Of a stretch of 64,000 nucleotides of DNA, positions 2,939-53,182 are shown piece after piece. Source of the DNA: a phage. The DNA lies in the NCBI GenBank assembly GCA_027468165.1, contig GCA_027468165.1_3951.1, one strand, 5' to 3'. Numbering within the stretch: the first letter of the stretch is position 1; the number at the start of each line of letters is the position of its first letter. The position numbers and the translations under genes were made by a program. The notes under the pieces were generated by a model. The model worked only from the letters and a program-made list of their open reading frames with translations. It ran no database searches and was not told the DNA's origin.

Positions 2939-2976
2939 TCAACGCAGCGGGGCTAAAATAGCCCCAGATACCTTTA

Positions 2977-3027
2977 AAGCCCCTTTATACTGATTCGATA
3001 GAATCTATCTCATAGGGGCTTTTTTAC
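2977..3027 (+). terminator. Terminator-like hairpin (AAGCCCCT ... AGGGGCTT followed by TTTTTT)
   Basis: 8-bp GC-rich stem with a large loop then T6; downstream of the plus-strand early genes. Confidence 0.45.
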
Positions 3028-3097
3028 GTCCTATCAAATCCCTTCCCTTCCCCTTTCCAGAATCTATCCCACTGATTCGATAGAATCTATCTCATAC
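2990..3097. repeat. 25-bp direct repeat CTGATTCGATAGAATCTATCTCATA (2990-3014 and 3073-3097)
   Basis: Exact duplication read directly. Confidence 0.8.
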
Positions 3098-3396
3098 CTT
3101 AAAAGGCAATAACTTTACAGTTTACCCTATAGCCTTTTATTAAATCAACTTAAATATAAGCCCATAACCCGAAAGGGAAGGGCAACCATTTAAACGCCAT
3201 ATAAAGCCCTATAACGGCCTTATTAACATAACTTAAGGGATTGCATTACCTCACCCTTAAAAGCCCTTTATAAAGCTTTCTAGGGGCTTAAAAGAGCCTT
3301 AAAAGAATCTTATAAGGGTGTAAGCTTTATCATCTCGTTAGTATCTAGTGAATAACTAAAAAGGGCTTGTCAGTGTCTTAAAAGTATGTTATAGGG

Positions 3397-3429
3397 GCTT
3401 AAAAGTTGCTTAAAAGTAGCTTAAAAGTT
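3397..3429. repeat. Tandem 11-bp repeat GCTTAAAAGTW x3
   Basis: Three head-to-tail copies read directly. Confidence 0.8.
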
Positions 3430-3642
3430 ACGTAAATGCTAGCCCCCTTAACATTTTCTTAACAATTTCTTAACAAACCCTACATAGTTATGTTTGTTAG
3501 TAACTTGTTAGCCCCTTGTTAAATCTCTGTTAAAACCATGTAAAAGCCTTGTAAGAACCTTTGGCATAGCCTTTAAAGCCCCTGAAAAGCCCTGTAAGGA
3601 GGTGTCTGTATAGTTGGGGTGTAATTACTAGGGAGAGACTAA

Positions 3643-3683
3643 AAAGGGCTTATAAGGAGCTATAAAGGGCTTTTAAAAGGGCT
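3643..3683. repeat. AAAGGGCT x3 at 22- and 11-bp spacing
   Basis: Read directly. Confidence 0.7.
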
Positions 3684-3779
3684 ATTTAAAAGGTCACTAG
3701 GGATTGGTAACAATACCAATTAAGAGGGAAAGGGAACGATAAGACCAGAGATAGTGACCATGTTAATAGCTTGTTAAAA

Positions 3780-4040
3780 AGGTTAAACACTTGTTAGAAA
3801 CTTGTTAATTATCTTAACAAAATAACTCTTTAAAATTAACTTGTTAGCCCTTGTTAGTCATCTGTTAAGCCTCTGTAAAGACTATTCAGCACTTGTTAGG
3901 ATACTGTTACCCTCTTGTTAAAACTGTTAAGAATCTGTTAAGACCTCTGAAGAGATGTTAAAAGGTTGTAAGAACTGTTAAGAGATTGTTAATGATATTT
4001 TAAAATTCTGCAAAGGGGGTGTTAAGGAGCTGTTAAGGGC
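3780..4040. repeat. Cluster of more than 20 YTGTTAR(G) motifs, many at ~10-11 bp phasing
   Basis: e.g. ACTGTTAAGAATCTGTTAAGACC...ACTGTTAAGAGATTGTTAATG; a second looser cluster at ~4190-4460. Confidence 0.7.
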
Positions 4041-4487
4041 TACCAAGCAGATATACATCTTCTACAGATATTTTTGAGTTCCTTTAAAGACCCTAAAAAA
4101 TGACTTGATAGTTCTATTTTATAAAAAATTTAAAATTCTGAATAATTACCTAGACAGTCTTCTAAAAATACAGGCATAAACAGGCTTATAAGATACCTTG
4201 TTAATACCTTGTTAGACCTTGTGAGATAAGGTCTGTAAAGATATTCCTGTTAAGTTTGTTAAAACAGTCTATATAGAGGCTTAGTAATACCTAGTGAACA
4301 CCTATAGAGGTAACATAGCTAACCTAATGGGTTACTGTTAAGTAACACAGGTAACCTAGAGATTAAGAGGTGTATAGGAGCTTCTAAGAGGGTATAGAGT
4401 GATGGTTAAGGTGATTGTATAGGTTGTTAAGAAGGCTTGTTAGAGGGCTATTTAGAAGGACTATACAGAGGGGCTATTAAGACCACT

Positions 4488-4535
4488 AGATAGATACTAA
4501 GATACTATATAGTACTATATAACTATATATAGAGA
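4488..4535. repeat. AT-rich tract with TACTATATA-type repeats
   Basis: TAGATAGATACTAAGATACTATATAGTACTATATAACTATATATAGAGAG. Confidence 0.6.
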
Positions 4536-4665
4536 GTAAGCTTAAGAAGGTTGTTAAGAAGGGTAGATATTTTATTCACATATGATGGTGACCCAGAGGT
4601 TGGGACAACCGATAAAATTTTATAAAAATTGAAAAGCCCCCAATTAAGGAGGCTCTTAAGATATT

Positions 4666-11479: not shown

Positions 11480-11714
11480 AGATAATCCTCTTGTCTTCTG
11501 TAATTTTGAAAGAACAGGTACAGACCAATTTCAGAGGACGAATAGTAGAGTAACTCTACCCTTTTTGATTCCTTACAGTGATTGGTATTTTTACCTTTCT
11601 TCGGGTTGTTTGATTTTCTCATTAAGTCTCCTTTGTAGAACAAGGCAGACCTACAGCTTTAAGTAAGATGGTACAGTAATCCATACAACAAGTCAAGAAC
11701 TATTGCAAGTTAAA

Positions 11715-11765
11715 AAAGTTGTTGACAAAGGACTTGACAAGGTGTAGGCTTATAAATACTTAGAA
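11715..11765 (+). promoter_or_regulatory. Putative promoter region at the minus-to-plus strand switch (tandem TTGACA boxes, motif ACTTGACAAGGTG)
   Basis: AAAAAAGTTGTTGACAAAGGACTTGACAAGGTGTAGGCTTATAAAT; the -10 element is ambiguous. Confidence 0.35.
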
Positions 11766-11871
11766 GATTACTTAAAAGGTTCCTCTAAAAAGGCTATTTA
11801 AACAGATATCTTTCTGGATATCTATCTTTTATCTTAAAAGCCTTTTAAGAGGTCTTATAAGAGGCATACCA

Positions 11872-13904: not shown

Positions 13905-13981
13905 CTCTGTTTAGCTCAGCTTGGTAGAGCGTTCCGTTTGGGGCGGTAAGGCCGGAGGTTCAAGTCCTCCAACAGAGACCA
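13905..13981 (+). tRNA. tRNA-Pro (anticodon UGG)
   Basis: Manual fold: acceptor CTCTGTT/AACAGAG, D-arm GCTCAGCTTGGTAGAGC, anticodon loop TTTGGGG, T-arm GGAGG-TTCAAGT-CCTCC, CCA encoded. Confidence 0.7.
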
Positions 13982-13988
13982 AATTAAT

Positions 13989-14066
13989 GTTCCAGTAGAC
14001 AAAATGGTATAGTCACCACTCTTTCAAAGTGGATATTTGAGGGTTCAAATCCCTTCTGGAACGCCA
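13989..14066 (+). tRNA. tRNA-Glu (anticodon UUC)
   Basis: Acceptor GTTCCAG/CTGGAAC, anticodon stem-loop CCACT-CTTTCAA-AGTGG, T-loop TTCAAAT, CCA encoded. Confidence 0.75.
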
Positions 14067-14073
14067 GTTTTGA

Positions 14074-14146
14074 CAGAAGACCAATTGCAGCAAACTTAAT
14101 CTTATTCATCTGACACGAAATCGGACAAAGAAGAGATTTGGTCTGG
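14074..14146 (+). repeat. tRNA-spacer element E1 (5' CAGAAGACC ... 3' GGTCTGG)
   Basis: Conserved termini able to pair (AGACC/GGTCT); starts 8 nt after tRNA-Glu and ends 12 nt before the next tRNA. Confidence 0.5.
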
Positions 14147-14157
14147 TCATTAAGAAT

Positions 14158-14234
14158 TGCGGGTATAGAGAAAGGGCGTCTCACATGTCTCATTAGCATG
14201 GTATCGGCAGGTTCGACTCCTGCACCCGCCTCCA
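14158..14234 (+). tRNA. tRNA-Met (anticodon CAU), initiator-like
   Basis: Anticodon stem-loop CATGT-CTCATTA-GCATG, T-arm GCAGG-TTCGACT-CCTGC, acceptor with unpaired 1:72 position; D-arm atypical. Confidence 0.55.
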
Positions 14235-14240
14235 ATTTTG

Positions 14241-14300
14241 CAGAAGACCGTATGCAGCAATAAACTACTTTTTGCGGATAAAAGAAAAAACACGGTCTGG
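14241..14300 (+). repeat. tRNA-spacer element E2 (CAGAAGACC ... GGTCTGG)
   Basis: Same terminal motifs and same placement relative to flanking tRNAs as E1. Confidence 0.5.
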
Positions 14301-14311
14301 CAATGTATTAA

Positions 14312-14385
14312 GGTTAGGAAGCACATAAGGTATGTGCGGTCGCCTGTTAAGCGAATGGCACAGGGTTCGAATCCCTGACTAACCG
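14312..14385 (+). tRNA. tRNA-Asn (anticodon GUU)
   Basis: Acceptor GGTTAGG/ACTAACC, D-stem GCAC/GTGC, anticodon loop CTGTTAA, T-arm CAGGG-TTCGAAT-CCCTG. Confidence 0.65.
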
Positions 14386-14396
14386 CAAATTTAAAT

Positions 14397-14484
14397 GTGT
14401 CGTTATCCCGTAGATGGTAGCGGTGGGGACTGTAAATCCCTTGTCATTGAGACTCGGTAGGTTCGACTCCTACACGGCACACCA
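14397..14484 (+). tRNA. tRNA-Tyr (anticodon GUA), long variable arm
   Basis: Acceptor GTGTCGT/ACGGCAC, anticodon loop CTGTAAA, ~14-nt variable arm, T-arm GTAGG-TTCGACT-CCTAC, CCA encoded. Confidence 0.7.
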
Positions 14485-14545
14485 ATTTTGAGAGGGCTAT
14501 TTAGCCCCTCCCTTAAAGGGTTCTTACGAGTATCCTTTAAAGGAG

Positions 14546-14619
14546 CAGAAGACCAAATACAGCAAGTTACTTAAAATTTCAAGCTAATTTAATTTTGAAA
14601 AATTTAAAACTTGGTCTGG
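14546..14619 (+). repeat. tRNA-spacer element E3 (CAGAAGACC ... GGTCTGG)
   Basis: Same terminal motifs. Confidence 0.5.
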
Positions 14620-14632
14620 CTCAACAAATTTA

Positions 14633-14763
14633 CAGAAGACCGTTTACAGCAAAACTTAAACAATCTATTTCTCGGTAAAGAAAAGGCGAAGGTTCGATTC
14701 CTTCACTCGGCAGATGTCGAGTTGGTGTAATGGTAGCACTTAAGATGATAAACAACGGTCTGG
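14633..14763 (+). repeat. tRNA-spacer element E4 (CAGAAGACC ... GGTCTGG) enclosing a tRNA-like fragment
   Basis: Same terminal motifs; interior contains T-arm and acceptor-like hairpins. Confidence 0.5.
14688..14739 (+). other. tRNA-like fragment in permuted order (T-arm + 3' acceptor strand, then complementary 5' acceptor strand + D-arm); no anticodon arm
   Basis: GAAGG-TTCGATT-CCTTC then ACTCGGC, 4-nt gap, then GTCGAGT + TGGTGTAATGGTAGCAC; the two acceptor strands are complementary. Confidence 0.3.
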
Positions 14764-14866
14764 TAATTATCTTTGCAGTAGCTTATGTGGCTAATTATGT
14801 CGTCCCATGAGTGCCGATGAATTTCCTTAGCATGATTCTAGATTAGCTTAATAGGAAATGACTCTA

Positions 14867-14887
14867 CAGACCCTTTAGCAAGGTCTG
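14867..14887 (+). repeat. Minimal spacer element E5 (CAGACC-CTTTAGCAA-GGTCTG)
   Basis: Shares the AGACC/GGTCT closing stem and GCAA motif with E1-E4. Confidence 0.4.
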
Positions 14888-14914
14888 CGTAGGTTACTGC
14901 AAAGATAATTTAAT

Positions 14915-14990
14915 GGAAGTGTAGCAGAATGGTGATGCGGCAGACTTTTAATCTGACAGGCGACGGGTTCGAATCCCTCCACTTCTACCA
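14915..14990 (+). tRNA. tRNA-Lys (anticodon UUU)
   Basis: Acceptor GGAAGTG/CACTTCT, anticodon loop CTTTTAA, T-loop TTCGAAT, CCA encoded; T-stem weak. Confidence 0.6.
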
Positions 14991-14994
14991 ATAT

Positions 14995-15071
14995 GGTTCA
15001 GTCGCAGATAAGGTAATGCAAGGGTCTCATAAGCCCTATGAATGTGGGTTCGATTCCCATCTGAACCTCCA
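14995..15071 (+). tRNA. tRNA with anticodon CAU (elongator Met or Ile-lysidine)
   Basis: Acceptor GGTTCAG/CTGAACC, anticodon stem-loop AGGGT-CTCATAA-GCCCT, T-loop TTCGATT, CCA encoded. Confidence 0.65.
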
Positions 15072-15072
15072 A

Positions 15073-15148
15073 GCTGGTATAGTTAAGAAGGTTATAACAC
15101 TCCCCTGATAAGGGAACATCGGTGGTTCGATTCCACCTACCAGTACCA
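15073..15148 (+). tRNA. tRNA-Ile (anticodon GAU)
   Basis: Acceptor GCTGGTA/TACCAGT, anticodon loop CTGATAA, T-arm GGTGG-TTCGATT-CCACC, CCA encoded. Confidence 0.7.
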
Positions 15149-15157
15149 ATTTCAATA

Positions 15158-15192
15158 AAGTTGTTGACATTGATATGTGACCACTTTATAGT
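15158..15192 (+). promoter_or_regulatory. Putative internal promoter: A-tract, TTGACA 15164-15169, 17 bp, TATAGT 15187-15192
   Basis: Near-consensus sigma70 elements. Confidence 0.5.
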
Positions 15193-15484
15193 AACTAAAA
15201 TACTTCATAATATGTATAATTCAAACACCAATACATGAGCGTTAGACGTAACACAATGTGGGGAAATTTGTTGTACATATTCTGAATAGTTTTCGTTGCG
15301 TAGCGTCTATTTTGCAAATTTAAAATAAATGCAAACGACAATGTTTTTCTGGCAGTAGCTTGATAGGCTAAACACCAGTGAGGTCTTCCAATCCCTCATC
15401 AAAGAATTTGGCGTACTCGCCCACGGTATGATTAATAAGGTGGGCATCTTTAAGGGTTTTTTAAGAGAGTCTTTAAAGATTAAT

Positions 15485-15561
15485 GCACCCTTAGTTCAAC
15501 TGGACAGAACAAATGACTTCTAATCATTAGGTTACAGGTTCGAATCCTGTAGGGTGTGCCA
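15485..15561 (+). tRNA. tRNA-Arg (anticodon UCU)
   Basis: Acceptor GCACCCT/AGGGTGT, D-stem GTTC/GAAC, anticodon stem-loop AATGA-CTTCTAA-TCATT, T-arm ACAGG-TTCGAAT-CCTGT, CCA encoded. Confidence 0.75.
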
Positions 15562-15576
15562 GTTTAAGAGGTATAT

Positions 15577-15918
15577 ATGAAGAACGGCTCTATAGGAGAA
15601 ATTGCAACTCAACTTGAGTTTATGAAGATGGGATATGAAATCTACTCACCAGCAACTGACAATGCTAGGTATGATTTTATAGCTCACAAAGACGGTAAAC
15701 TTTATAAAGTTGAAGTTAAATCCACCTCAAGGAAAGTTAGAGATGTATGGAAAGTGCAACTAAAGAGAGTTCATTCAAATAGAAGTTCAAACAGAATAGC
15801 TAACTTTGATAACACGTTAGTTGATTTCTTATCAGTTTATATTGAACCTCTTGAAAAGGTTATAATCCTTAAAGCTAAAGACGTTACTTCAAAAACTGAG
15901 TTAAGCTTAAGGGTTTAG
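15577..15918 (+). CDS. Small PD-(D/E)xK nuclease-like protein (113 aa) embedded in the tRNA array
   Basis: Motif D(FIA)...KVEVKS resembling the PD...(D/E)xK catalytic core; strong SD. Confidence 0.5.
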   Translation: MKNGSIGEIATQLEFMKMGYEIYSPATDNARYDFIAHKDGKLYKVEVKSTSRKVRDVWKVQLKRVHSNRSSNRIANFDNTLVDFLSVYIEPLEKVIILKAKDVTSKTELSLRV

Positions 15919-16027
15919 ATTATCTTCTGTAAGGAGGTGGTCTGTATCTCATGTTTCCAGAACATGTAAATAATCTGAGAAGGGGCTTTACAGTGTTGCG
16001 AAAATACGGTAAGCTTCGAATTATAGT

Positions 16028-16110
16028 ATGGGACGATGTTAAGACTCTAAGGCATGAGCAACGGCTTCCAACACCGTTTCAAAGGGGTTCAACTCCTCCG
16101 TCCCATGCCA
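16028..16110 (+). tRNA. Atypical tRNA-like gene, possibly tRNA-Trp (anticodon CCA) with enlarged D-region
   Basis: Perfect acceptor ATGGGAC/GTCCCAT, anticodon stem-loop ACGGC-TTCCAAC-ACCGT, T-loop TTCAACT, CCA encoded; D-region ~7 nt too long. Confidence 0.4.
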
Positions 16111-16122
16111 AGTCTTATTAGG

Positions 16123-16210
16123 GGTAGGTAGCGGCTAATGGTAGCCAAACTGTCTTGAAAACAGTTGCCACTGTAGAGATACGGTGAGGGTTCGACTCCT
16201 TTACTTACCG
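16123..16210 (+). tRNA. tRNA-Ser (anticodon UGA), long variable arm
   Basis: Anticodon stem-loop ACTGT-CTTGAAA-ACAGT, ~20-nt variable arm, T-loop TTCGACT. Confidence 0.6.
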
Positions 16211-16465
16211 CCTAATAAGATTTAAAGCCAAGCTTCATTCGGATGTTGCTTTGGTATCCCTCGTGTATTGTCGTACACAAGTAAAGCACCTAGTAGGTGT
16301 CACGGAGAAGAGATAATATCAAGCTCTCCAAAGGTTCTAGTCACCGGATTAAACAAGACTATGCAAAGGCCTATTTAGGTCTTTTTAGAGGGCTTCTAAG
16401 GTTATTACAGCTTGTTGTGGAACCTTGTTGCTTAGGTTCTTAGAAGTTCTCTAAAAAGATTTAAT

Positions 16466-16543
16466 GGGAGATTGACGGTAATTGGTAAACCTATCTCGCT
16501 TAGAACGAGATGTTTGAGGGTTCGAATCCCTTGTCTCCTACCA
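16466..16543 (+). tRNA. tRNA with anticodon UAG (Leu), short variable region
   Basis: Acceptor GGGAGAT/GTCTCCT, anticodon stem-loop TCTCG-CTTAGAA-CGAGA, 5-nt variable region, T-arm GAGGG-TTCGAAT-CCCTT, A73, CCA encoded. Confidence 0.6.
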
Positions 16544-16550
16544 AATTAAT

Positions 16551-16626
16551 GCAGGTGTAGCAAAATGGTTATGCGGCTGACTCTTAATCAGTAAGACGAT
16601 GGGTTCAATTCCCTCCACCTGTACCA
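16551..16626 (+). tRNA. tRNA-Lys (anticodon CUU)
   Basis: Acceptor GCAGGTG/CACCTGT, anticodon stem-loop GCTGA-CTCTTAA-TCAGT, T-loop TTCAATT, CCA encoded. Confidence 0.65.
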
Positions 16627-16632
16627 GACATT

Positions 16633-16708
16633 GGGGATGTAGTTTACATGGTTAAAACATAAGTTTTGCAAACTTAAGTACAGGGTTCAATTCCCTGCTT
16701 CTCCACCA
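16633..16708 (+). tRNA. tRNA-Ala (anticodon UGC)
   Basis: G3:U70 wobble pair in acceptor stem, D-stem GTTT/AAAC, anticodon stem-loop TAAGT-TTTGCAA-ACTTA, T-arm CAGGG-TTCAATT-CCCTG, CCA encoded. Confidence 0.75.
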
Positions 16709-16714
16709 ATTAGT

Positions 16715-16789
16715 GCATCCATAGTTTAAACGGGAAAATTACAGTCTTCCAAACTGAGGTTGAGGGTTCGATTCCCTCTGGATGCTCCA
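16715..16789 (+). tRNA. tRNA-Gly (anticodon UCC)
   Basis: Acceptor GCATCCA/TGGATGC, anticodon loop CTTCCAA, T-arm GAGGG-TTCGATT-CCCTC, CCA encoded. Confidence 0.7.
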
Positions 16790-16796
16790 AATTAAT

Positions 16797-16873
16797 GCTG
16801 CTTTCGTATAATTGGCTATTACACATCCCTTGTAAGGATGGAAATGCAGGTTCGAGTCCTGTGAGCAGCACCA
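16797..16873 (+). tRNA. tRNA-Thr (anticodon UGU)
   Basis: Acceptor GCTGCTT/GAGCAGC, anticodon stem-loop CATCC-CTTGTAA-GGATG, T-arm GCAGG-TTCGAGT-CCTGT, CCA encoded. Confidence 0.75.
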
Positions 16874-16968
16874 ATTCAGAGGTCAAGTGAAAGACCGCTG
16901 GTGTCAACTGAAGACCGTAACAAATTCCACGGAGTTGAGTTAGCGGCACAACTTCAGACCTCTTTCAT

Positions 16969-17043
16969 ACTCGCTTAGTTTATATGGTAAAACACCACCC
17001 TTACAAGATGAAGAAAAAGGTTCAAGTCCTTTAGTGAGTACCA
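16969..17043 (+). tRNA. tRNA-Val (anticodon UAC)
   Basis: Acceptor ACTCGCT/AGTGAGT, D-stem GTTT/AAAC, anticodon loop CTTACAA, T-arm AAAGG-TTCAAGT-CCTTT, CCA encoded; anticodon stem weak. Confidence 0.6.
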
Positions 17044-17044
17044 T

Positions 17045-17122
17045 GTTCCAGTATCCCAATTGGTAGAGGATGCAAGCTCAAACCTTGTACTAGTGACGGT
17101 TCGAATCCGTCTTGGAACACCA
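17045..17122 (+). tRNA. tRNA with anticodon CAA (Leu), short variable region
   Basis: Acceptor GTTCCAG/TTGGAAC, anticodon stem-loop GCAAG-CTCAAAC-CTTGT, 6-nt variable region, T-arm GACGG-TTCGAAT-CCGTC, A73, CCA encoded. Confidence 0.6.
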
Positions 17123-17236
17123 ACTTTAGGAGAGCACTGTGAGTGATAAGTCAATAGCAAAAAAGTTTAGAGCGTCATACCTAAACAGACGTAAAAACAG
17201 AGATTGTGAAAAACTGTATGGTGTTCTTGTAGGTAA

Positions 17237-17312
17237 GCAGGATTAGTTCAAATGGATAGAGCAACAGTCTACGAAGCTGTTAATAGGGGTTCGAATCCCT
17301 TATCCTGCGCCA
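17237..17312 (+). tRNA. tRNA-Arg (anticodon ACG)
   Basis: Perfect acceptor GCAGGAT/ATCCTGC, anticodon stem-loop ACAGT-CTACGAA-GCTGT, T-loop TTCGAAT, CCA encoded. Confidence 0.75.
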
Positions 17313-17331
17313 ATTTAAAGAGGCTATTTAG

Positions 17332-17889
17332 ATGAGATATTTGAAGTATGCTTCATGGATTTTCTTAGCTTTGTTAGAGCCATTTGCAGCAATCTTAGCA
17401 GTTATCTTAGCACCTTTCGTAGTTCCATTTTACAGTGAGAAGAAAGGACACTTACCTTTCGGCTTCAGATGGATGGAAACATACGACAACCCAATTGATG
17501 GTGATAAAGGTCATGTCGAACGGTGGGCTAAGATTAGAAAGATTGGTAAGCTCGGTGTCTACATGCAGAGAGTTGGATGGCTCTGGAGAAACAAAGCTTA
17601 TAACTTCTCTTACCATGTGTTAGGAAGAGATGTAAAAGATGTTACTAAGTGGAAAGGTAATATCAATGTAAGTTCTAACCCTGAAGATAATCAGACAGGT
17701 TATCTCCTAATGTGGAACAGTAATGCTTGGGGGTTATTCGCTTTTATCCCATCAATTAAAGTCTTTGGTAAACAATTCTACTGGAGAATTTATGTTGGGT
17801 GGAAACTTAAAAGTGTTGTCCCAGAAGAAAGAGCATTCTCAAGGGAAAGAGTTATGTTGGCATTCTTTATTCATCCACTGAGAAAGTAA
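17332..17889 (+). CDS. Membrane protein with hydrophobic N-terminus (185 aa) embedded in the tRNA array
   Basis: ORF track; N-terminal segment WIFLALLEPFAAILAVILAPFVVPF; ATG 20 nt after tRNA-Arg. Confidence 0.5.
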   Translation: MRYLKYASWIFLALLEPFAAILAVILAPFVVPFYSEKKGHLPFGFRWMETYDNPIDGDKGHVERWAKIRKIGKLGVYMQRVGWLWRNKAYNFSYHVLGRDVKDVTKWKGNINVSSNPEDNQTGYLLMWNSNAWGLFAFIPSIKVFGKQFYWRIYVGWKLKSVVPEERAFSRERVMLAFFIHPLRK

Positions 17890-17897
17890 AGATTTAA

Positions 17898-17973
17898 AGG
17901 GGATTAGTTTACAAGGTTAAAACCTCGGTCTTTGAAATCGAAGAAGTTGGTTCAATTCCAACATCCCCCGCCA
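17898..17973 (+). tRNA. tRNA-Gln (anticodon UUG)
   Basis: D-stem GTTT/AAAC, anticodon stem-loop TCGGT-CTTTGAA-ATCGA, T-arm GTTGG-TTCAATT-CCAAC, CCA encoded; position 1:72 unpaired. Confidence 0.65.
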
Positions 17974-17975
17974 AT

Positions 17976-18054
17976 GCTCCATTACTCCAATTGGCAGAGA
18001 GGCCAGACTTAAAATCTGTGTTATGTATCGGTTCGAATCCGATATGGAGTACCA
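17976..18054 (+). tRNA. tRNA with anticodon UAA (Leu), short variable region
   Basis: Acceptor GCTCCAT/ATGGAGT, anticodon loop CTTAAAA, 7-nt variable region, T-arm ATCGG-TTCGAAT-CCGAT, A73, CCA encoded. Confidence 0.6.
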
Positions 18055-18059
18055 AATTT

Positions 18060-18135
18060 AGCGGTATAGCATAACTGGCAATGCAACAGTCTCTGAAGCT
18101 GTCTTATTAAGGTTCAAATCCTTATGCCGCTGCCA
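18060..18135 (+). tRNA. tRNA-Gln (anticodon CUG)
   Basis: Acceptor AGCGGTA/TGCCGCT, D-stem GCAT/ATGC, anticodon stem-loop ACAGT-CTCTGAA-GCTGT, T-arm TAAGG-TTCAAAT-CCTTA, CCA encoded. Confidence 0.7.
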
Positions 18136-18166
18136 CTTCTAAGGGTTCTTACGAGAGTCCTTAAAT

Positions 18167-18242
18167 GTGGCCTTATCATAAATGGTAATGACCCATGCTG
18201 TGAACATGGTCTATACGGGTTCAAATCCCGTAGGTCACCCCA
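18167..18242 (+). tRNA. tRNA-His (anticodon GUG)
   Basis: Acceptor GTGGCCT/AGGTCAC, D-stem TCAT/ATGA, anticodon stem-loop CCATG-CTGTGAA-CATGG, T-arm ACGGG-TTCAAAT-CCCGT, C73, CCA encoded. Confidence 0.75.
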
Positions 18243-18247
18243 ATTTA

Positions 18248-18324
18248 TAGTCCAAGTAGCTTATATGGTTAAAGCGCGTGTCTGAAAAACATGAGAAGAG
18301 GGTTCAAATCCCACTGGACTACCA
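18248..18324 (+). tRNA. tRNA-Phe (anticodon GAA); ends uncertain
   Basis: D-stem GCTT/AAGC, anticodon stem-loop CGTGT-CTGAAAA-ACATG, T-loop TTCAAAT; acceptor pairing admits two registers. Confidence 0.55.
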
Positions 18325-18340
18325 ATTTCAAAGGTGCTTA

Positions 18341-19075
18341 ATGAAAGAGATGACAGAACAAGGTAAGGAGATTTTTAATCTCTTAAAAACTGGTAGAGGG
18401 TTTTCTAATCCCCTTATTACTGGTGCAGCAGTTCTCGGTGGAACCGTAGCTGCCTCTACATCACTTGTAAGCTCTATTAGCTCTGTAACAGACCCTACAA
18501 TAAAGGATAAACTTGTTGCGGCTGGACTTACAACAGTTCTGCTTAACAGCTTTACAACGAGTCTGACAAGCACTACATCAACCACTAAGACACTGACAGA
18601 TTACGGTCAAAAGTCCATTGATGAGTTTTCATCACGTATGCAGGTAGCAAAAGGATATTCCAATGTTATGGGTGCAGCAGGAGAACAAGTCGGTTGTACA
18701 CCATTTAGTGGTATTATGGGTGTTGCTACAGAGTACGGTCAAAAAGCTATTGACACAATTAACAGTACACTAGATGGTGTTAATGATGTATTAAGTGACT
18801 TACAAGATGCTATTGATAAAGGTCTTGATACTGTTTCTGATTTAGCTAATCAGGCTGTTAGTAAGATTAATGAAGGTATTTCGAAGATTACAGCTTATGC
18901 AAATGAAGTTGTGCAGATGATTGAAGAAGAAGCTGCCCTTATTGCAGAGTACCTTAAAACGAATATCAATGGGTTCTTAGCAGGTATCTTACCAGACTGG
19001 TTTGATGATGCTTGTAAAACTGGTGTGATTGACACTATTGCAACACCAGAAATGAAGAGCGCATTACAGAAATAA
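18341..19075 (+). CDS. Hypothetical Ser/Thr-rich protein (245 aa from the ATG at 18341)
   Basis: ORF-track frame trimmed to the first ATG downstream of tRNA-Phe (MKEMTEQ...). Confidence 0.5.
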   Translation: MKEMTEQGKEIFNLLKTGRGFSNPLITGAAVLGGTVAASTSLVSSISSVTDPTIKDKLVAAGLTTVLLNSFTTSLTSTTSTTKTLTDYGQKSIDEFSSRMQVAKGYSNVMGAAGEQVGCTPFSGIMGVATEYGQKAIDTINSTLDGVNDVLSDLQDAIDKGLDTVSDLANQAVSKINEGISKITAYANEVVQMIEEEAALIAEYLKTNINGFLAGILPDWFDDACKTGVIDTIATPEMKSALQK

Positions 19076-19076
19076 T

Positions 19077-19169
19077 GGAAGATTAACCCTAAAAGGTAAG
19101 GGAGCAGTTTGCTAAACTGCCAGTAGCTGAGAAATCGGTGTACCAGTTCAAGTCTGGTATCTTCCTCCA
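19077..19169 (+). tRNA. tRNA-Ser (anticodon GCU), long variable arm
   Basis: Acceptor GGAAGAT/ATCTTCC, anticodon stem-loop GCAGT-TTGCTAA-ACTGC, ~21-nt variable arm, T-arm ACCAG-TTCAAGT-CTGGT, CCA encoded. Confidence 0.6.
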
Positions 19170-19173
19170 ATTT

Positions 19174-19249
19174 GAATCCGTGACAGAAATGGCTATGTGC
19201 CTGTCTGCAAAACAGGTTTATAAGGGTTCGAGTCCCTTCGGATTCTCCA
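19174..19249 (+). tRNA. tRNA-Cys (anticodon GCA)
   Basis: Perfect acceptor GAATCCG/CGGATTC, anticodon stem-loop CCTGT-CTGCAAA-ACAGG, T-arm AAGGG-TTCGAGT-CCCTT, U73, CCA encoded. Confidence 0.7.
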
Positions 19250-19471: not shown

Positions 19472-19672
19472 ATGAGTGAGAACGTTTATAAAGAACTTTA
19501 TGAAGCCAATAAAAAGCTGGAATTTATGCAGACTACTATTATGGCAATTGCAGACAGATTGTCTGTAGCAACAGGTATTGATATTAAAGAAGCATCTATG
19601 GATGCACTTCTTGATGCTGTTGATGCAAAGTTCGAAGTTAAGAAAGAAGAGACTGCTACAGACTCTGAATAA
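19472..19672 (+). CDS. Hypothetical small protein (66 aa) upstream of terminase
   Basis: ORF track; SD GGAG. Confidence 0.45.
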   Translation: MSENVYKELYEANKKLEFMQTTIMAIADRLSVATGIDIKEASMDALLDAVDAKFEVKKEETATDSE

Positions 19673-19693
19673 TTCTATTTGCGGAGGTGCTTA

Positions 19694-21295
19694 ATGGACT
19701 TAAATGCTGTTAAGCAGAAGCGAGTGGAAGATGTTAGGAAAGTCCTAGCTGGAGAGTTGGGGCTTTCTGATGAAGTAAAAGAAATTATCAAATCATTCGG
19801 TAAAGACCCCTCTAAATTCCTTCCAACTCAAATTCTGACTTTATTAAGATACACACCAGACCAAGTTAGACTTATCTTCAAATTGATGACTGATAAGAAC
19901 TATGTAGCCCCTCAGCCGGGTTCTCAAGAGGTGTTTTTAAATACTAATGCTGACTTGGTTTTATATGGTGGTGCTGCTGGTGCTGGTAAAACTGCTGCAT
20001 TGTTAATGGACTCTTTAAGGTTTATTGAAGACCCTAACTATAATGCTGTATATTTCCGTCGAAATACAACACAGTTACAAGGTGGTTTATGGCCTGCTGC
20101 AAAGAAACTATTTGGTAAGTTTGGTGGGGTTCCTCACGAGCAGAAGATGACTATCACATTCCCTTCTGGGGCAACTATCAAGTTCACCTACCTAGAACTT
20201 GAAAAGCACGCTGAAGGTCATCAGGGTATTGAATACTCGGCTATTTACTTTGACGAAGGTACACACTTCTCTGCTTCACAGATTTCATACCTACAGACTC
20301 GTCTACGTTCTGGGGCTGAAGGTGATTCATACATGAAGATTTCTATGAACCCAGACAGAGACCATTTTATTTATGATTGGGTAGAACCCTTCTTAGATGA
20401 AGAAGGTTACCCAGACCCTGAGAAGTGCGGTCGTATTCGTTGGTATGTTATGAATGATGGTGTGATGGTTTCTGATTGGGAGAGAGACAAGATTCTTGAA
20501 ATGTTCCCTCTTGAGATTCCTCAGACATACACCTTCATCTCTGGTACGATTGATGATAACCCAATTCTTGACTTCTTAGAGCCTAAATATCGTGGTAAGT
20601 TGGAAAACAACACACCTGTAAACGTTGCAAGACTTCGTTTCGGTAACTGGAAGGCTCGTGCAGAAGGTTCAAACTATTGGCAAAGACAATGGTGTGAGAT
20701 TGTTGATTCACTCCCAGAAGATGTATTTGATGTCAGAGCATGGGACTTAGCAGCGACTTTACCATCTGAGATTAACCCTAACCCAGACTGGACAGCGGGT
20801 GTTAAGATGGGTAAATCTAAAAAAGACGGTTGCTATTATATCATTGATGTAGTAAGATTTAGAGATAGACCCTCTGGAGTCGAAACACAAATTAATTTGA
20901 CTGCTGAAAGTGACGGTAAGCGAACTGGTATTTTTATCCCTCAAGACCCAGGCGCTGCTGGTAAATCCTATGCAACATCCCTCATCAGGAAACTTGCCGA
21001 GAAAGGTTATCGCGCAAGAGCTAAACCAACAAATAAAGATAAAGTTACCCGCTTTGCGGGATTTTCTGCTGCTTCTGAAGCTGGACTTGTAAAAGTCTTG
21101 AGAGGTAGTTGGAACGAAGCTTATTTCCAAGAACTTGAAGGTTTTTGTGGTGATGGCAAAACTAAAGATGACCAAGTGGATGCTACCAGTGATGCTTTCA
21201 ACAGTCTTAACGAAGTTAAATTATTCAAGCCACCATCAATGGGTGCTCATACAGACTTAGTGAGAGGAAACCCATATGAGGGGCTTAGACGTTGA
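19694..21295 (+). CDS. Terminase large subunit
   Basis: Walker A (VLYGGAAGAGKT), size, position upstream of portal; start trimmed to ATG 19694. Confidence 0.8.
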   Translation: MDLNAVKQKRVEDVRKVLAGELGLSDEVKEIIKSFGKDPSKFLPTQILTLLRYTPDQVRLIFKLMTDKNYVAPQPGSQEVFLNTNADLVLYGGAAGAGKTAALLMDSLRFIEDPNYNAVYFRRNTTQLQGGLWPAAKKLFGKFGGVPHEQKMTITFPSGATIKFTYLELEKHAEGHQGIEYSAIYFDEGTHFSASQISYLQTRLRSGAEGDSYMKISMNPDRDHFIYDWVEPFLDEEGYPDPEKCGRIRWYVMNDGVMVSDWERDKILEMFPLEIPQTYTFISGTIDDNPILDFLEPKYRGKLENNTPVNVARLRFGNWKARAEGSNYWQRQWCEIVDSLPEDVFDVRAWDLAATLPSEINPNPDWTAGVKMGKSKKDGCYYIIDVVRFRDRPSGVETQINLTAESDGKRTGIFIPQDPGAAGKSYATSLIRKLAEKGYRARAKPTNKDKVTRFAGFSAASEAGLVKVLRGSWNEAYFQELEGFCGDGKTKDDQVDATSDAFNSLNEVKLFKPPSMGAHTDLVRGNPYEGLRR

Positions 21296-52974: not shown

Positions 52975-53020
52975 TAAAAAGCAAGTTGACAATGTACTTG
53001 ACAAGGTGTTAATCTTTGCG
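52975..53020 (+). promoter_or_regulatory. Putative promoter region at the minus-to-plus strand switch (tandem TTGACA boxes, motif ACTTGACAAGGTG)
   Basis: AAAAAGCAAGTTGACAATGTACTTGACAAGGTGTTAATC; same arrangement as 11715-11765. Confidence 0.35.
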
Positions 53021-53182
53021 AAGTGGGTTTTTACTTAAAAGGTTACTTAACAGTTTAACTATACAGATACTTTAAAACTCTTAAAAGATTATTTAATAGC
53101 TTTTAAAAAGCTTTAAAGTATAACGTATAGAATACGTTAAGATAAAAGATTAAAACTTAATAGTTACTTAAAAGAGGCTTAC

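What the first reader, a model, noticed from the sequence alone, without database searches (positions are those of the whole stretch)
2940..4660. Gene-free 1.7 kb block of helically phased short repeats between convergent early gene sets
Neither strand has an ORF of 60 aa or more across 1.7 kb in an otherwise tightly packed genome. The block contains at least three short-motif families repeated at roughly 10-11 bp spacing, i.e. on one face of the helix: GCTTAAAAGTW x3 in tandem (3397-3429), AAAGGGCT x3 (3643-3683), and more than 20 YTGTTAR(G) copies (3780-4040, looser set 4190-4460). It also has a 25-bp direct repeat (2990-3014, 3073-3097), GC hairpins and an AT-rich TACTATATA tract (4488-4535). 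Iteron array plus AT-rich tract is the classic layout of a replication origin or protein-nucleated DNA-handling site. An alternative, by analogy to the repeat-rich non-coding region separating pre-early from early genes in phage T5, is a DNA-entry pause or terminus/packaging control region. CTTAAAAG-like motifs also recur at both divergent strand-switch regions (11770-11870, 53020-53180), suggesting a shared binding factor.
Basis: partly seen in the sequence, partly recalled or inferred. Interest (0 to 1): 0.75.

Follow-up and report, generated by a model that had tools for sequence, protein, structure and literature searches.

The report
Phage chromosome ends with phased repeats
The gene-free, repeat-filled 1.7 kb block is where this Felix O1-like phage's linear chromosome begins and ends: it holds the ~600 bp terminal repeat and the conserved cutting signals used when DNA is packaged. 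It is most likely not a replication origin; what the 11-bp phased repeats do is still unknown.

Summary
No ORF of 60 aa or more lies in 2940-4660. Motif enrichments reach z=10-19, and an 11-bp periodicity reaches z=23, unmatched by any other part of the window.

The window is a Felixounavirus. At least six related GenBank records open exactly at the homologue of 3442, and at least four end at the homologue of 4044. Four carry the same 579-694 bp at both ends. This places the direct terminal repeat (DTR) at 3442-4044. A 608-bp DTR was shown experimentally for UAB_Phi87.

An exact motif, CCCTTAACA-N4-CTTAACA, occurs only twice in 64 kb. The two copies are inverted and sit just inside each DTR edge. 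TGTTAAGGGCTACC^AAGCAGATATACA is invariant across three genera. A distant Kolesnikvirus has the same layout, and only the two termini align with the window.

The block is as conserved as its neighbouring genes. DTR length varies in steps of about 11 nt.

The best reading is a concatemer-junction and packaging region, comparable to the T7 terminal repeat arrays and the T5 non-coding terminal-repeat boundary region. The phased repeats are probably protein-binding tracks. Origin hallmarks are weak. The DTR is already known for this genus; the detailed anatomy appears undescribed.

The parts
2949..2965 (+). Conserved GC hairpin (GGGGCTA-AAA-TAGCCCC) just after the last plus-strand gene; first terminator-like stem
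   Evidence: Fold (2940-3035, z=-5.05); conservation 0.93
2976..3025 (+). Intrinsic terminator of the rightward transcription unit (stem AAAGCCCCU/AGGGGCUUU followed by a U-run). In this genome its loop carries a palindromic insert
   Evidence: In most relatives the loop is 4-8 nt: ACAGCCCCT..AGGGGCTTTTTTACG
2989..3014 (.). Copy 1 of a 26-bp palindromic element (core TGATTCGATAGAATCTATCTC). It is variable between genomes and not a core part of the block
   Evidence: (D16)
3071..3096 (.). Copy 2 of the same palindromic element
3098..3427 (+). Left-flank arrays: 8 CTTAAAAG copies, all in one orientation and all left of the left terminus (3098, 3256, 3287, 3298, 3377, 3398, 3409, 3420), with 11-bp runs at 3287-3316 and 3397-3429
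3252..3320 (.). Long imperfect palindrome (arms 3252-3277 and 3295-3320)
   Evidence: I9; consensus fold z=-5.3 on a 20-genome alignment
3425..3441 (.). Conserved sequence just outside the left terminus (AAGTTACGTAAATGCTA^); inferred part of the left cut signal
   Evidence: Conservation 1.0 in 10 genomes; near-invariant in 20 sequences from three genera; aligns with the Kolesnikvirus terminus
3442..4044 (.). Direct terminal repeat (DTR) of the virion chromosome, 603 bp, present once in this collapsed or permuted sequence. Left end at 3442, right end at 4044
   Evidence: D4, CRP22, NBSal004 and GE_vB_7A carry 579-694 bp identically at both record ends, mapping to 3442-4044. Further records open at 3442 or end at 4044. 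581-bp DTR by PhageTerm in Pr103Blw. 608-bp DTR by Bal31 and run-off sequencing in UAB_Phi87, against a motif-to-motif distance of 614 bp there
3445..3464 (+). Boundary motif CCCTTAACA-N4-CTTAACA, 3 nt inside the left terminus
   Evidence: Exact motif occurs only twice in 64 kb, in inverted orientation (0.07 matches expected by chance even with up to 2 mismatches allowed). Invariant in Felixounavirus and Suspvirus
4020..4039 (-). The same boundary motif in inverted orientation, 5 nt inside the right terminus
3447..3476 (+). Three CTTAACA units at 11-bp spacing at the left DTR edge (opposite orientation to the TGTTAA arrays). Copy number is 2-5 in relatives
3493..3561 (+). Array of six YTGTTAR/YTGTAAR units at 11-bp spacing
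   Evidence: (D1)
3570..3693 (.). AAAGCCC then AAAGGGCT arrays (orientation switches); period 10-13
   Evidence: (I8)
3757..4040 (+). Main TGTTAA(G) array of the DTR, about 14 copies pointing towards the right terminus
4045..4057 (.). AAGCAGATATACA, a 13-mer immediately outside the right terminus; inferred right cut or recognition signal
   Evidence: Unique in the window. TGTTAAGGGCTACC^AAGCAGATATACA is invariant in 20 sequences from three genera. The same 13-mer abuts the terminus in Kolesnikvirus SPARTY
4058..4631 (.). Highly conserved right flank: looser TGTTAA/CTNNNNAG arrays (4185-4560), AT-rich tracts (4100-4150 at 82% AT, 4488-4535 at 79% AT), and a single DnaA-box-like TTATTCACA at 4572-4580
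   Evidence: Mean identity 0.905, with long stretches at 0.95-1.0
4632..4657 (-). Intrinsic terminator of the leftward transcription unit
   Evidence: z=-3.84; annotated as a terminator in wV8

Best explanation
The block is the chromosome-end (concatemer-junction) region of a Felix O1-like myophage.

Shown: the virion DNA of close relatives starts at the homologue of 3442 and ends at the homologue of 4044. So 3442-4044 is the ~600-bp direct terminal repeat. It sits in a gene-free spacer between the terminators of two converging transcription units, so no transcript crosses the ends.

Inferred: during packaging the terminase cuts or nicks the replicated concatemer at two fixed sites. These are TA^GCCCCC on one strand and, on the other strand, CTT^GGTAGCCC (read in plus-strand orientation as GGGCTACC^AAG). 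Each site lies 3-5 nt from an inward-facing CCCTTAACA-N4-CTTAACA motif. The right site also abuts the invariant AAGCAGATATACA. The repeat is then duplicated by strand-displacement synthesis, as proposed for T7-type phages.

More weakly inferred: the 11-bp phased arrays inside and beside the repeat (CTTAAAAG on the left, CTTAACA/TGTTAAG inside and on the right) are binding tracks that place a multimeric protein on one face of the helix. This protein could be a terminase recognition subunit or another end-binding factor. It would assemble the cutting and packaging complex and keep the two cut sites in helical register.
For: Location of the ends:
- Identical 579-694 bp at both ends of four independent records map to 3442-4044.
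- At least six records open exactly at 3442 and at least four end at 4042-4044.
- Published DTRs in this genus: 581 bp by PhageTerm, 608 bp by Bal31 plus run-off sequencing, and DTR and linear ends for D4, E9, I14.1 and H12.
- The motif-to-motif distance in UAB_Phi87 is 614 bp against the measured 608 bp.

Cut signals:
- The exact 16-base boundary motif occurs only twice in 64 kb, inverted, at both DTR edges.
- A 27-nt invariant block spans the right terminus in three genera.

Constraint on the block:
- It is as conserved as the flanking genes: 0.79, 0.86 and 0.905 against 0.86 and 0.92.
- Between genera the DNA stays 77-82% identical, while the neighbouring protein drops to 46-52%.
- Motif positions are conserved at 0.86-0.95 and spacers at 0.74-0.80.

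Distant relative: Kolesnikvirus SPARTY has only ~50% global identity, but the same design. It has a 1454-bp gene-free junction between convergent genes, a 439-bp DTR in the middle, an 11-12 bp periodicity, and a TTAACA to TGTTAA orientation switch. Only the two termini align with the window.

DTR length: it varies from 567 to 694 bp in steps of about 11.2 nt.

Precedents: T7 shows comparable arrays, with CCTAAAG 11 times at 13-bp spacing in and beside its 160-bp DTR. T5 has a 1662-bp conserved, repeat-rich non-coding region spanning its terminal-repeat boundary.
Against: - The ends of this particular genome were not measured. The placement rests on homology (86-90% identity in the DTR, boundary motifs identical).
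- One paper reports pac-type headful packaging for a Felixounavirus, SEP1.
- No small terminase or other binding protein could be identified (Whichard 2010).
- The role of such arrays is not established even in T7.
- Predicted intrinsic curvature of the block is not above the rest of the window.
- The 11-nt length ladder is what repeat slippage alone would produce.
- The cut positions relative to the boundary motif differ by 2 nt between the two ends.
- Similar CTTAAAAG clusters in promoter leaders suggest the arrays might serve transcription or nucleoid organisation rather than packaging.
Confidence: 0.6

Rival explanations
1. Replication origin: the phased repeats are iterons for an initiator and the AT-rich tracts are the unwinding element. 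The terminal repeat merely coincides with the origin, as with the secondary T7 origins near phiOL and phiOR.
For: Tandem phased repeats plus AT-rich tracts at 4100-4150 (82% AT) and 4488-4535 (79% AT). One conserved DnaA-box-like site at 4572-4580. The cumulative GC-skew curve changes slope near 3300-3450. T7 carries promoter-type secondary origins beside its terminal repeat (annotation; their origin role is from my own knowledge).
Against: The cores are 8 bp at 11-bp spacing and fall into at least three families, not 17-22 bp iterons. DnaA boxes are not enriched (6 in the window against 3.9 expected, one in the block). No recognisable initiator lies beside the block. The replication genes lie about 50 kb away. 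The skew change coincides with reversal of gene and motif orientation. The best-conserved elements sit exactly at the physical termini.
Confidence: 0.12
2. DNA-entry control: like the T5 injection stop signal, the repeat-rich ends bind a host or virion protein that pauses or paces genome ejection, or protects the entering end from exonucleases.
For: The block lies at both ends of the injected DNA. T5 has a comparably sized (1662 bp), conserved, repeat-rich non-coding region at its terminal-repeat boundary that holds the injection stop signal. The CTTAACA arrays read inward from both ends.
Against: The DTR is 0.6 kb and gene-free, so no pre-early genes could be expressed from a first-step fragment. 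Both flanking transcription units point towards the ends. The paired DnaA boxes that mark the T5 region are absent. No two-step transfer is reported for this group in the papers read.
Confidence: 0.1
3. Regulatory or architectural binding arrays: one factor (a phage protein or host nucleoid protein) binds CTNNNNAG-type units both here and in the leaders of the two early promoter regions. It would insulate or terminate the converging transcription units, or silence early promoters, independently of packaging.
For: CTTAAAAG clusters at 11771-11842 and 53034-53167, downstream of a shared tandem-TTGACA promoter module and a shared TTACTTAAAAGGTT 14-mer. These two regions rank at or near the top outside the block for motif density: 6 motifs per 120-nt window at 11751-11870, and 5 at 53001-53120, tied with three other windows. 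11-bp triplets occur in other intergenic spots.
Against: Enrichment outside the block is modest. Many outside copies are parts of terminator hairpins or Shine-Dalgarno contexts. Sigma-70-like promoters are not enriched in the block (9 against 7.5 expected). This reading does not explain why the most conserved elements coincide with the termini.
Confidence: 0.13
4. Largely neutral, slippage-prone spacer around short essential cut sites. The arrays would be by-products of replication slippage with no function of their own.
For: Copy number of 11-nt units varies freely between genomes. Small hairpin inserts come and go.
Against: Overall conservation equals that of coding DNA and exceeds that of the neighbouring gene between genera. 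Motif cores are more conserved than spacers. The same organisation persists in a genus with ~50% identity.
Confidence: 0.05

Closest known systems
Felixounavirus direct terminal repeats (UAB_Phi87, 608 bp by Bal31 and run-off sequencing; Pr103Blw, 581 bp by PhageTerm)
   Same: Same genus, same sequence. The window's 3442-4044 is the homologue of the repeat carried at both ends of D4, CRP22, NBSal004 and GE_vB_7A.
   Different: The published reports give only a length. None of the passages retrieved by my term searches of those papers describes the gene-free block, the boundary motifs, the flanking invariant 13-mer or the phased arrays.
Phage T7 terminal region (160-bp DTR with arrays of CCTAAAG; called SRL/SRR by Dunn and Studier 1983, from memory)
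   Same: A short exact DTR in non-coding DNA, with a short A/T-rich motif repeated at fixed spacing inside and beside it: 11 copies in the first 340 bp, autocorrelation peak at lag 13. The motif resembles CTTAAAAG/CTTTAAAG.
   Different: Spacing is 13 bp against 11 bp. T7 has one motif family, this block several. The DTR is 160 bp against 603 bp. T7's left end carries inward-reading early promoters, whereas here both neighbouring units read towards the ends. T7 is an unrelated podovirus with a known small terminase. The function of the T7 arrays is itself unresolved.
Phage T5 non-coding region holding the injection stop signal
   Same: [quoted passage not shown] It is conserved among relatives more than the adjacent genes and spans the inner end of the terminal repeat.
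   Different: The T5 repeat is 10 kb and encodes pre-early genes. Its hallmark is eight paired DnaA boxes in large inverted repeats; here there is one DnaA box. Two-step transfer is not known for Felix O1-like phages.
Terminase recognition sites with phased repeats (lambda cosB R-sites with IHF; SPP1 pacL/pacR bound by the small terminase; from established knowledge)
   Same: Short repeats about one helical turn apart, next to a terminase cleavage site.
   Different: Those systems give cohesive ends or headful packaging and use an identified small terminase. No small terminase is recognisable here, and two cut sites 603 bp apart are used.
Iteron-type replication origins (lambda ori, plasmid oriV)
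   Same: Tandem helically phased repeats next to AT-rich DNA.
   Different: Unit size and diversity differ, no initiator gene is adjacent, DnaA boxes do not cluster, and physical genome ends lie inside the block.

Membership tests
Short exact direct-terminal-repeat (T7-type) chromosome ends | The same sequence is present at both ends of the virion DNA | tested here: met
   Met in relatives. D4 (581 bp), CRP22 (579 bp) and NBSal004 (694 bp) are 100% identical at both record ends; GE_vB_7A (581-583 bp) is 99.5% identical. All map to window 3442-4044. The window itself holds one collapsed copy.
Short exact direct-terminal-repeat (T7-type) chromosome ends | Fixed, non-permuted ends shown on virion DNA | not testable with these tools
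   No reads for this genome. Shown for UAB_Phi87 by Bal31 and run-off sequencing and by PhageTerm for several relatives. One conflicting headful claim exists for SEP1.
Short exact direct-terminal-repeat (T7-type) chromosome ends | Conserved sequence at the cut sites | tested here: met
   ACGTAAATGCTA^GCCCCC and GGGCTACC^AAGCAGATATACA are invariant or nearly so in 20 sequences from three genera. The termini are the only clearly alignable parts against Kolesnikvirus.
Short exact direct-terminal-repeat (T7-type) chromosome ends | Large terminase of a DTR-type clade | not tested
   TerL is present at 19679-21295. I did not build a phylogeny. Bardina 2016 states that TerL phylogeny agrees with the packaging type.
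T7-like terminal short-repeat arrays | Short motif repeated at fixed spacing inside and beside the DTR | tested here: met
   Window: lag-11 autocorrelation z=23. T7: CCTAAAG 11 times, lag-13 peak.
T7-like terminal short-repeat arrays | Same motif and spacing as T7 | tested here: not met
   11 bp against 13 bp. CTTAAAAG, TGTTAAG and AAAGGGCT against CCTAAAG.
Iteron-type replication origin | Tandem iterons of about 17-22 bp of one family | tested here: not met
   8-bp cores at 10-12 bp spacing in at least three families and two orientations.
Iteron-type replication origin | Adjacent AT-rich unwinding region | tested here: met
   4100-4150 is 82% AT and 4488-4535 is 79% AT, against 61% for the window.
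Iteron-type replication origin | Cluster of DnaA boxes and/or an adjacent initiator gene | tested here: not met
   One TTATNCACA in the block; 6 in the window against 3.9 expected. The flanking proteins match only families of unknown function.
Iteron-type replication origin | Origin activity in vivo | not testable with these tools
   Needs marker-frequency or plasmid replication assays.
T5 injection-stop-signal region | Large conserved non-coding repeat-rich region at a terminal-repeat boundary | tested here: met
   T5 description; anatomy here.
T5 injection-stop-signal region | Paired DnaA boxes within large inverted repeats | tested here: not met
   A single box.
T5 injection-stop-signal region | Long terminal repeat encoding pre-early genes; two-step DNA transfer | tested here: not met
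   The DTR is 603 bp with no ORF above 34 aa. Two-step transfer itself is not testable here.
Small-terminase-bound pac/cos site | Recognisable small terminase gene | tested here: not met
   PHROGs scan of ORFs next to TerL gives only unknown-function families. The Felix O1 paper also found none.
Small-terminase-bound pac/cos site | Helically phased repeats next to the cleavage site | tested here: met
   CTTAACA 3 times at 3447-3476 and TGTTAAG copies up to 4037, each abutting a terminus.

The most novel reading that the evidence does not exclude
The inward-facing CTTAACA/TGTTAAG arrays are conserved across the whole subfamily Ounavirinae and change only in whole 11-nt units. They could be the loading track of an unidentified end-recognition protein, a functional substitute for the missing small terminase. 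This protein would polymerise from both boundary motifs and set the two cuts 603 bp apart in fixed helical register. The same or a related factor might also occupy the CTTAAAAG leaders of the early promoters, linking packaging to early-gene shut-off.
Probability: 0.22. Interest if true: 0.6.

Novelty: new member of a known kind. Interest (0 to 1): 0.4.

Why it matters
The finding turns an unannotated 1.6-1.7 kb 'hole' into something concrete. More than 250 Felix O1-like phage genomes carry this block, and many of these phages are used for typing, biocontrol and therapy. The block holds the physical chromosome ends, the ~600-bp terminal repeat and candidate cutting signals.

Practical uses:
- It tells annotators where to open these genomes.
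- It explains assembly artefacts, both collapsed repeats and records that start inside the block.
- It shows which cis-elements must be kept when these phages are engineered or rebooted.

Scientific use: how myophages without a recognisable small terminase find and duplicate a short terminal repeat is unknown. The conserved motifs and phased arrays give precise, mutable targets for that question. They may also shed light on the long-unexplained repeat arrays at the ends of T7 and T5.

Tried and rejected
- Coding potential: no ORF above 34 aa and none convincing.
- Known RNA families: no Rfam match at E<=1. All tRNAs lie elsewhere.
- Structured RNA: consensus folding found only one notable dyad (3193-3303, z=-5.3) and nothing in the highly conserved right flank (z between -0.1 and -3.6).
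- Sigma-70 promoters: 9 found against 7.5 expected, so not enriched.
- DnaA boxes: not enriched.
- Intrinsic DNA curvature (wedge model, parameters recalled from memory): block mean 11.2 degrees against 10.7 for the rest of the window. There are only mild local peaks beside both termini, so curvature alone does not explain the phasing.
- Binding protein or small terminase: PHROGs gave only unknown-function families for the flanking genes and the genes next to TerL.
- Source genome: no record in the phage collection exceeds ~89% identity over the first 9 kb, so there is no record with measured ends for this exact phage.
- Literature search for T7 pacB returned mostly PacBio noise.
It is a variable palindromic insert, absent from most relatives.
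Full report
WHAT THE WINDOW IS

The block 2940-4660 matches 257 phage records at 78-93% identity. Almost all are Felixounavirus, the Felix O1-like myophages of Escherichia, Salmonella, Shigella and Citrobacter, and most carry no annotation under the match. No record exceeds about 89% identity over the first 9 kb, so the source is a distinct member of the genus.

In Felix O1 itself the homologous gap lies between ORF23 and ORF24. These are the converging ends of the transcription units 97-131/1-23 and 40-24 described by Whichard et al. 2010. That paper inferred only 'short terminal repeats' from the size difference between the gel estimate and the sequence.

CHECK OF THE OBSERVATION

- No ORF of 60 aa or more overlaps the block. 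The longest are 34 and 32 aa.
- GCTTAAAAGTW occurs three times in tandem at 3397-3429. AAAGGGCT occurs four times. YTGTTAR occurs 25 times forward and 3 times reversed. The exact 26-bp direct repeat and the TACTATATA tract are also found.
- The only overstatement is 'more than 20 copies in 3780-4040'. There are 12 strict and 16 loose copies there; the figure of more than 20 holds for the whole block.
- Against 500 dinucleotide-preserving shuffles the motif counts give z=10-19.
- A 4-mer autocorrelation peaks at lag 11 (z=23), with harmonics at 21-22, 31-33 and 42-43. The block's value of 66.8 per 1000 compares with a maximum of 16.4 in 69 other tiles of the window.
- Many units fit a general form, CT-N4-AG with an A/T-rich centre: 60 copies, or 35 per kb against 9 per kb elsewhere.
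- The CTTAAAAG clusters at 11771-11842 and 53034-53167 are real.

WHAT IS REALLY THERE: THE CHROMOSOME ENDS

Several related GenBank records begin or end inside the block.

- CRP22 and NBSal004 carry 579 and 694 identical bases at both record ends. Both copies map to window 3442-4044.
- D4 (581 bp) and GE_vB_7A (581-583 bp) do the same.
- A search with 3442-4044 alone shows D4, I14.1, E9, H12 and CRP22 opening at exactly query base 1. GE_vB_7A, NJ12 and pEP20 end at query base 601-603.
- The D4, E9, I14.1 and H12 paper states that PhageTerm found direct terminal repeats and linear genomes.
- Pr103Blw has a 581-bp DTR by PhageTerm.
- UAB_Phi87 has a 608-bp DTR shown by Bal31 digestion and run-off sequencing.
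- Measuring from the left-terminus motif to the right-terminus motif in UAB_Phi87 gives 614 bp, within 1% of that experimental value.

I therefore place the direct terminal repeat at 3442-4044 (603 bp). The left end reads TA^GCCCCCTTAACA and the right end reads GTTAAGGGCTACC^AAGCAG. This rests on homology, because the ends of this genome itself were not measured. One paper claims headful packaging for the Felixounavirus SEP1.

ANATOMY

From left to right the block contains the following.

- Two terminator hairpins close the rightward unit, at 2949-2965 and 2976-3025.
- In this genome the loop of the second terminator holds a 26-bp palindromic insert, and a second copy lies at 3071-3096. Most relatives lack these inserts, or carry them elsewhere or inverted.
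- A left flank carries eight CTTAAAAG copies, all in one orientation and all outside the DTR.
- The DTR opens with three CTTAACA units. It then switches to TGTTAA(G)-type units that run to the right edge and beyond.
- A right flank, 4045-4631, is very strongly conserved.
- The terminator of the leftward unit lies at 4632-4657.

The exact 16-base motif CCCTTAACA-N4-CTTAACA occurs only twice in the 64 kb, at 3445-3464 (+) and 4020-4039 (-). This puts it 3 and 5 nt inside the two termini, in inverted orientation. Read 5' to 3' inward from either end, the DNA therefore presents the same motif.

CONSERVATION

In a 10-genome alignment, identity to the window is 0.79 for the left flank, 0.86 for the DTR and 0.905 for the right flank. 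The two flanking genes score 0.86 and 0.92. Conservation peaks at 3425-3470, 3785-3845, 4025-4300 and 4355-4660.

In 20 sequences covering Felixounavirus, Suspvirus and Mooglevirus, TGTTAAGGGCTACC^AAGCAGATATACA is invariant. The left-terminus sequence is nearly invariant.

Between genera the block stays 77-82% identical, while the adjacent 197-aa protein falls to 46-52% amino-acid identity.

Within the arrays, motif positions are conserved at 0.86-0.95 and spacers at 0.74-0.80.

Copy number changes in whole 11-nt units. DTR length across 27 distinct sequences forms a ladder from 567 to 694 bp with a best period of 11.2-11.3 nt. The Rayleigh R is 0.72-0.78, against a 99th percentile of 0.62 for random lengths. 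Slippage alone could produce this ladder, but it does preserve the helical register of the two cut sites.

A DISTANT RELATIVE

Hafnia phage SPARTY is a Kolesnikvirus with a 439-bp DTR by PhageTerm, and the repeat is present exactly at both record ends. It shares only about 50% global identity with the block, yet has the same design:

- a 1454-bp gene-free junction between converging genes, with the DTR in the middle;
- an 11-12 bp periodicity;
- TTAACA at one DTR edge switching to TGTTAA towards the other edge and beyond.

The only clearly alignable segments between SPARTY and the window are the two termini: window 3950-4057 (E=6e-11) and 3423-3475 (E=1e-6). These include the 13-mer AAGCAGATATACA immediately outside the repeat.

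MECHANISM

Shown: the ends and the repeat lie here, and the end-proximal sequences are under strong constraint across a subfamily.

Inferred: these are the terminase cut signals. The symmetric boundary motifs fit the T7-type scheme, which I take from established knowledge. In that scheme one nick is made at the 5' edge of the repeat on each strand, and strand-displacement synthesis gives both daughter ends a copy.

More weakly inferred: the phased arrays are binding tracks for a multimeric protein that assembles this complex. Predicted intrinsic curvature is not elevated, which favours protein binding over bent DNA. No small terminase or other candidate protein was recognisable.

RIVALS

- Replication origin. 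This is weak. There are no iteron-sized units, DnaA boxes are not enriched, no initiator gene is adjacent, and the best-conserved elements sit at the termini.
- T5-like entry pause. The structural resemblance is good: T5 has a 1662-bp conserved, repeat-rich non-coding region spanning its terminal-repeat boundary. However, the 0.6-kb repeat here encodes nothing, and the paired DnaA boxes of T5 are absent.
- A regulatory or architectural factor shared with the early promoter leaders. This remains possible.
- Purely neutral spacer DNA. This is unlikely given the conservation.

These readings do not exclude one another, and none conflicts with the terminal repeat.

COMPARISON AND NOVELTY

The closest known cases are the published Felixounavirus DTRs, which are the same object, and the T7 terminal region. 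Direct inspection of T7 shows a 160-bp DTR with CCTAAAG repeated 11 times at 13-bp spacing in and beside it.

The DTR is already known for this genus. The gene-free block, the inverted boundary motifs, the invariant flanking 13-mer, the 11-nt length ladder and the subfamily-wide architecture were not described in any passage my term searches of these papers returned. I therefore rate the finding as a new member of a known kind, of moderate interest.

Noticed in passing
window 2989-3014 and 3071-3096; also L001 4051-4071, L003 1446-1466, L022 3143-3163(-), L023 5081-5101(-), L034 1144-1164(-), L037 313-333: A 21-26 nt palindromic element (TGATTCGRTAGAATCTAYCTC) sits at different places and in different orientations within the terminal block of different genomes. 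In the window one copy lies inside a terminator loop. It behaves like a tiny mobile hairpin insert. Other variable hairpin inserts lie at 3700-3721 and 4311-4341.
   Followed up: partly
window ~11712-11785 and ~52985-53048: Both divergent strand-switch regions share a promoter module: tandem -35 boxes (GTTGACAAnGnACTTGACAAGGTGT) followed by an identical 14-mer, TTACTTAAAAGGTT, in the leader. Each leader has three CTTAAAAG copies. One regulator may control both rightward operons.
   Followed up: partly
window 19472-19672 and 19679-21295: A 66-aa ORF of unknown function lies in the same reading frame as the large terminase ORF, separated from it by a single stop codon. The PHROG terminase profile aligns only from its position 82. 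This could mean a mis-set start, read-through, or a split N-terminal part. It may be relevant to the 'missing' small terminase.
   Followed up: no
window 3252-3320: A long imperfect palindrome (arms 3252-3277 and 3295-3320) in the left flank. It is the only segment of the block with a strongly non-random consensus fold (z=-5.3 on a 20-genome alignment). Its function is unknown.
   Followed up: partly
DTR homologues in 27 distinct related sequences (loci L001-L051): DTR length forms a ladder (567-570, 579-582, 591, 601-603, 612-614, 623, 633, 638, 658, 694 bp) with a period of about 11.2 nt. NBSal004 carries a 49-bp tandem expansion inside its DTR.
   Followed up: yes
literature: PMC13431587 (phage SEP1, MW311372.1): A 2026 paper reports pac-type headful packaging with heterogeneous termini for a Felixounavirus whose block is 88.5% identical to the window. 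This conflicts with the DTR evidence from other members and may be a PhageTerm artefact.
   Followed up: no
window 13905-19249: A cluster of 25 tRNA genes on the plus strand, upstream of the terminase gene.
   Followed up: no
L058 (T7 1-700): Between phiOL and promoter A1, T7 also contains CTTAAAG and CTTAAAAG 11 bp apart (ACTTAAAGAGACTTAAAAG). Its terminal CCTAAAG arrays resemble the CTTAAAAG/CTTTAAAG units here. A host factor shared by coliphages is conceivable but untested.
   Followed up: no
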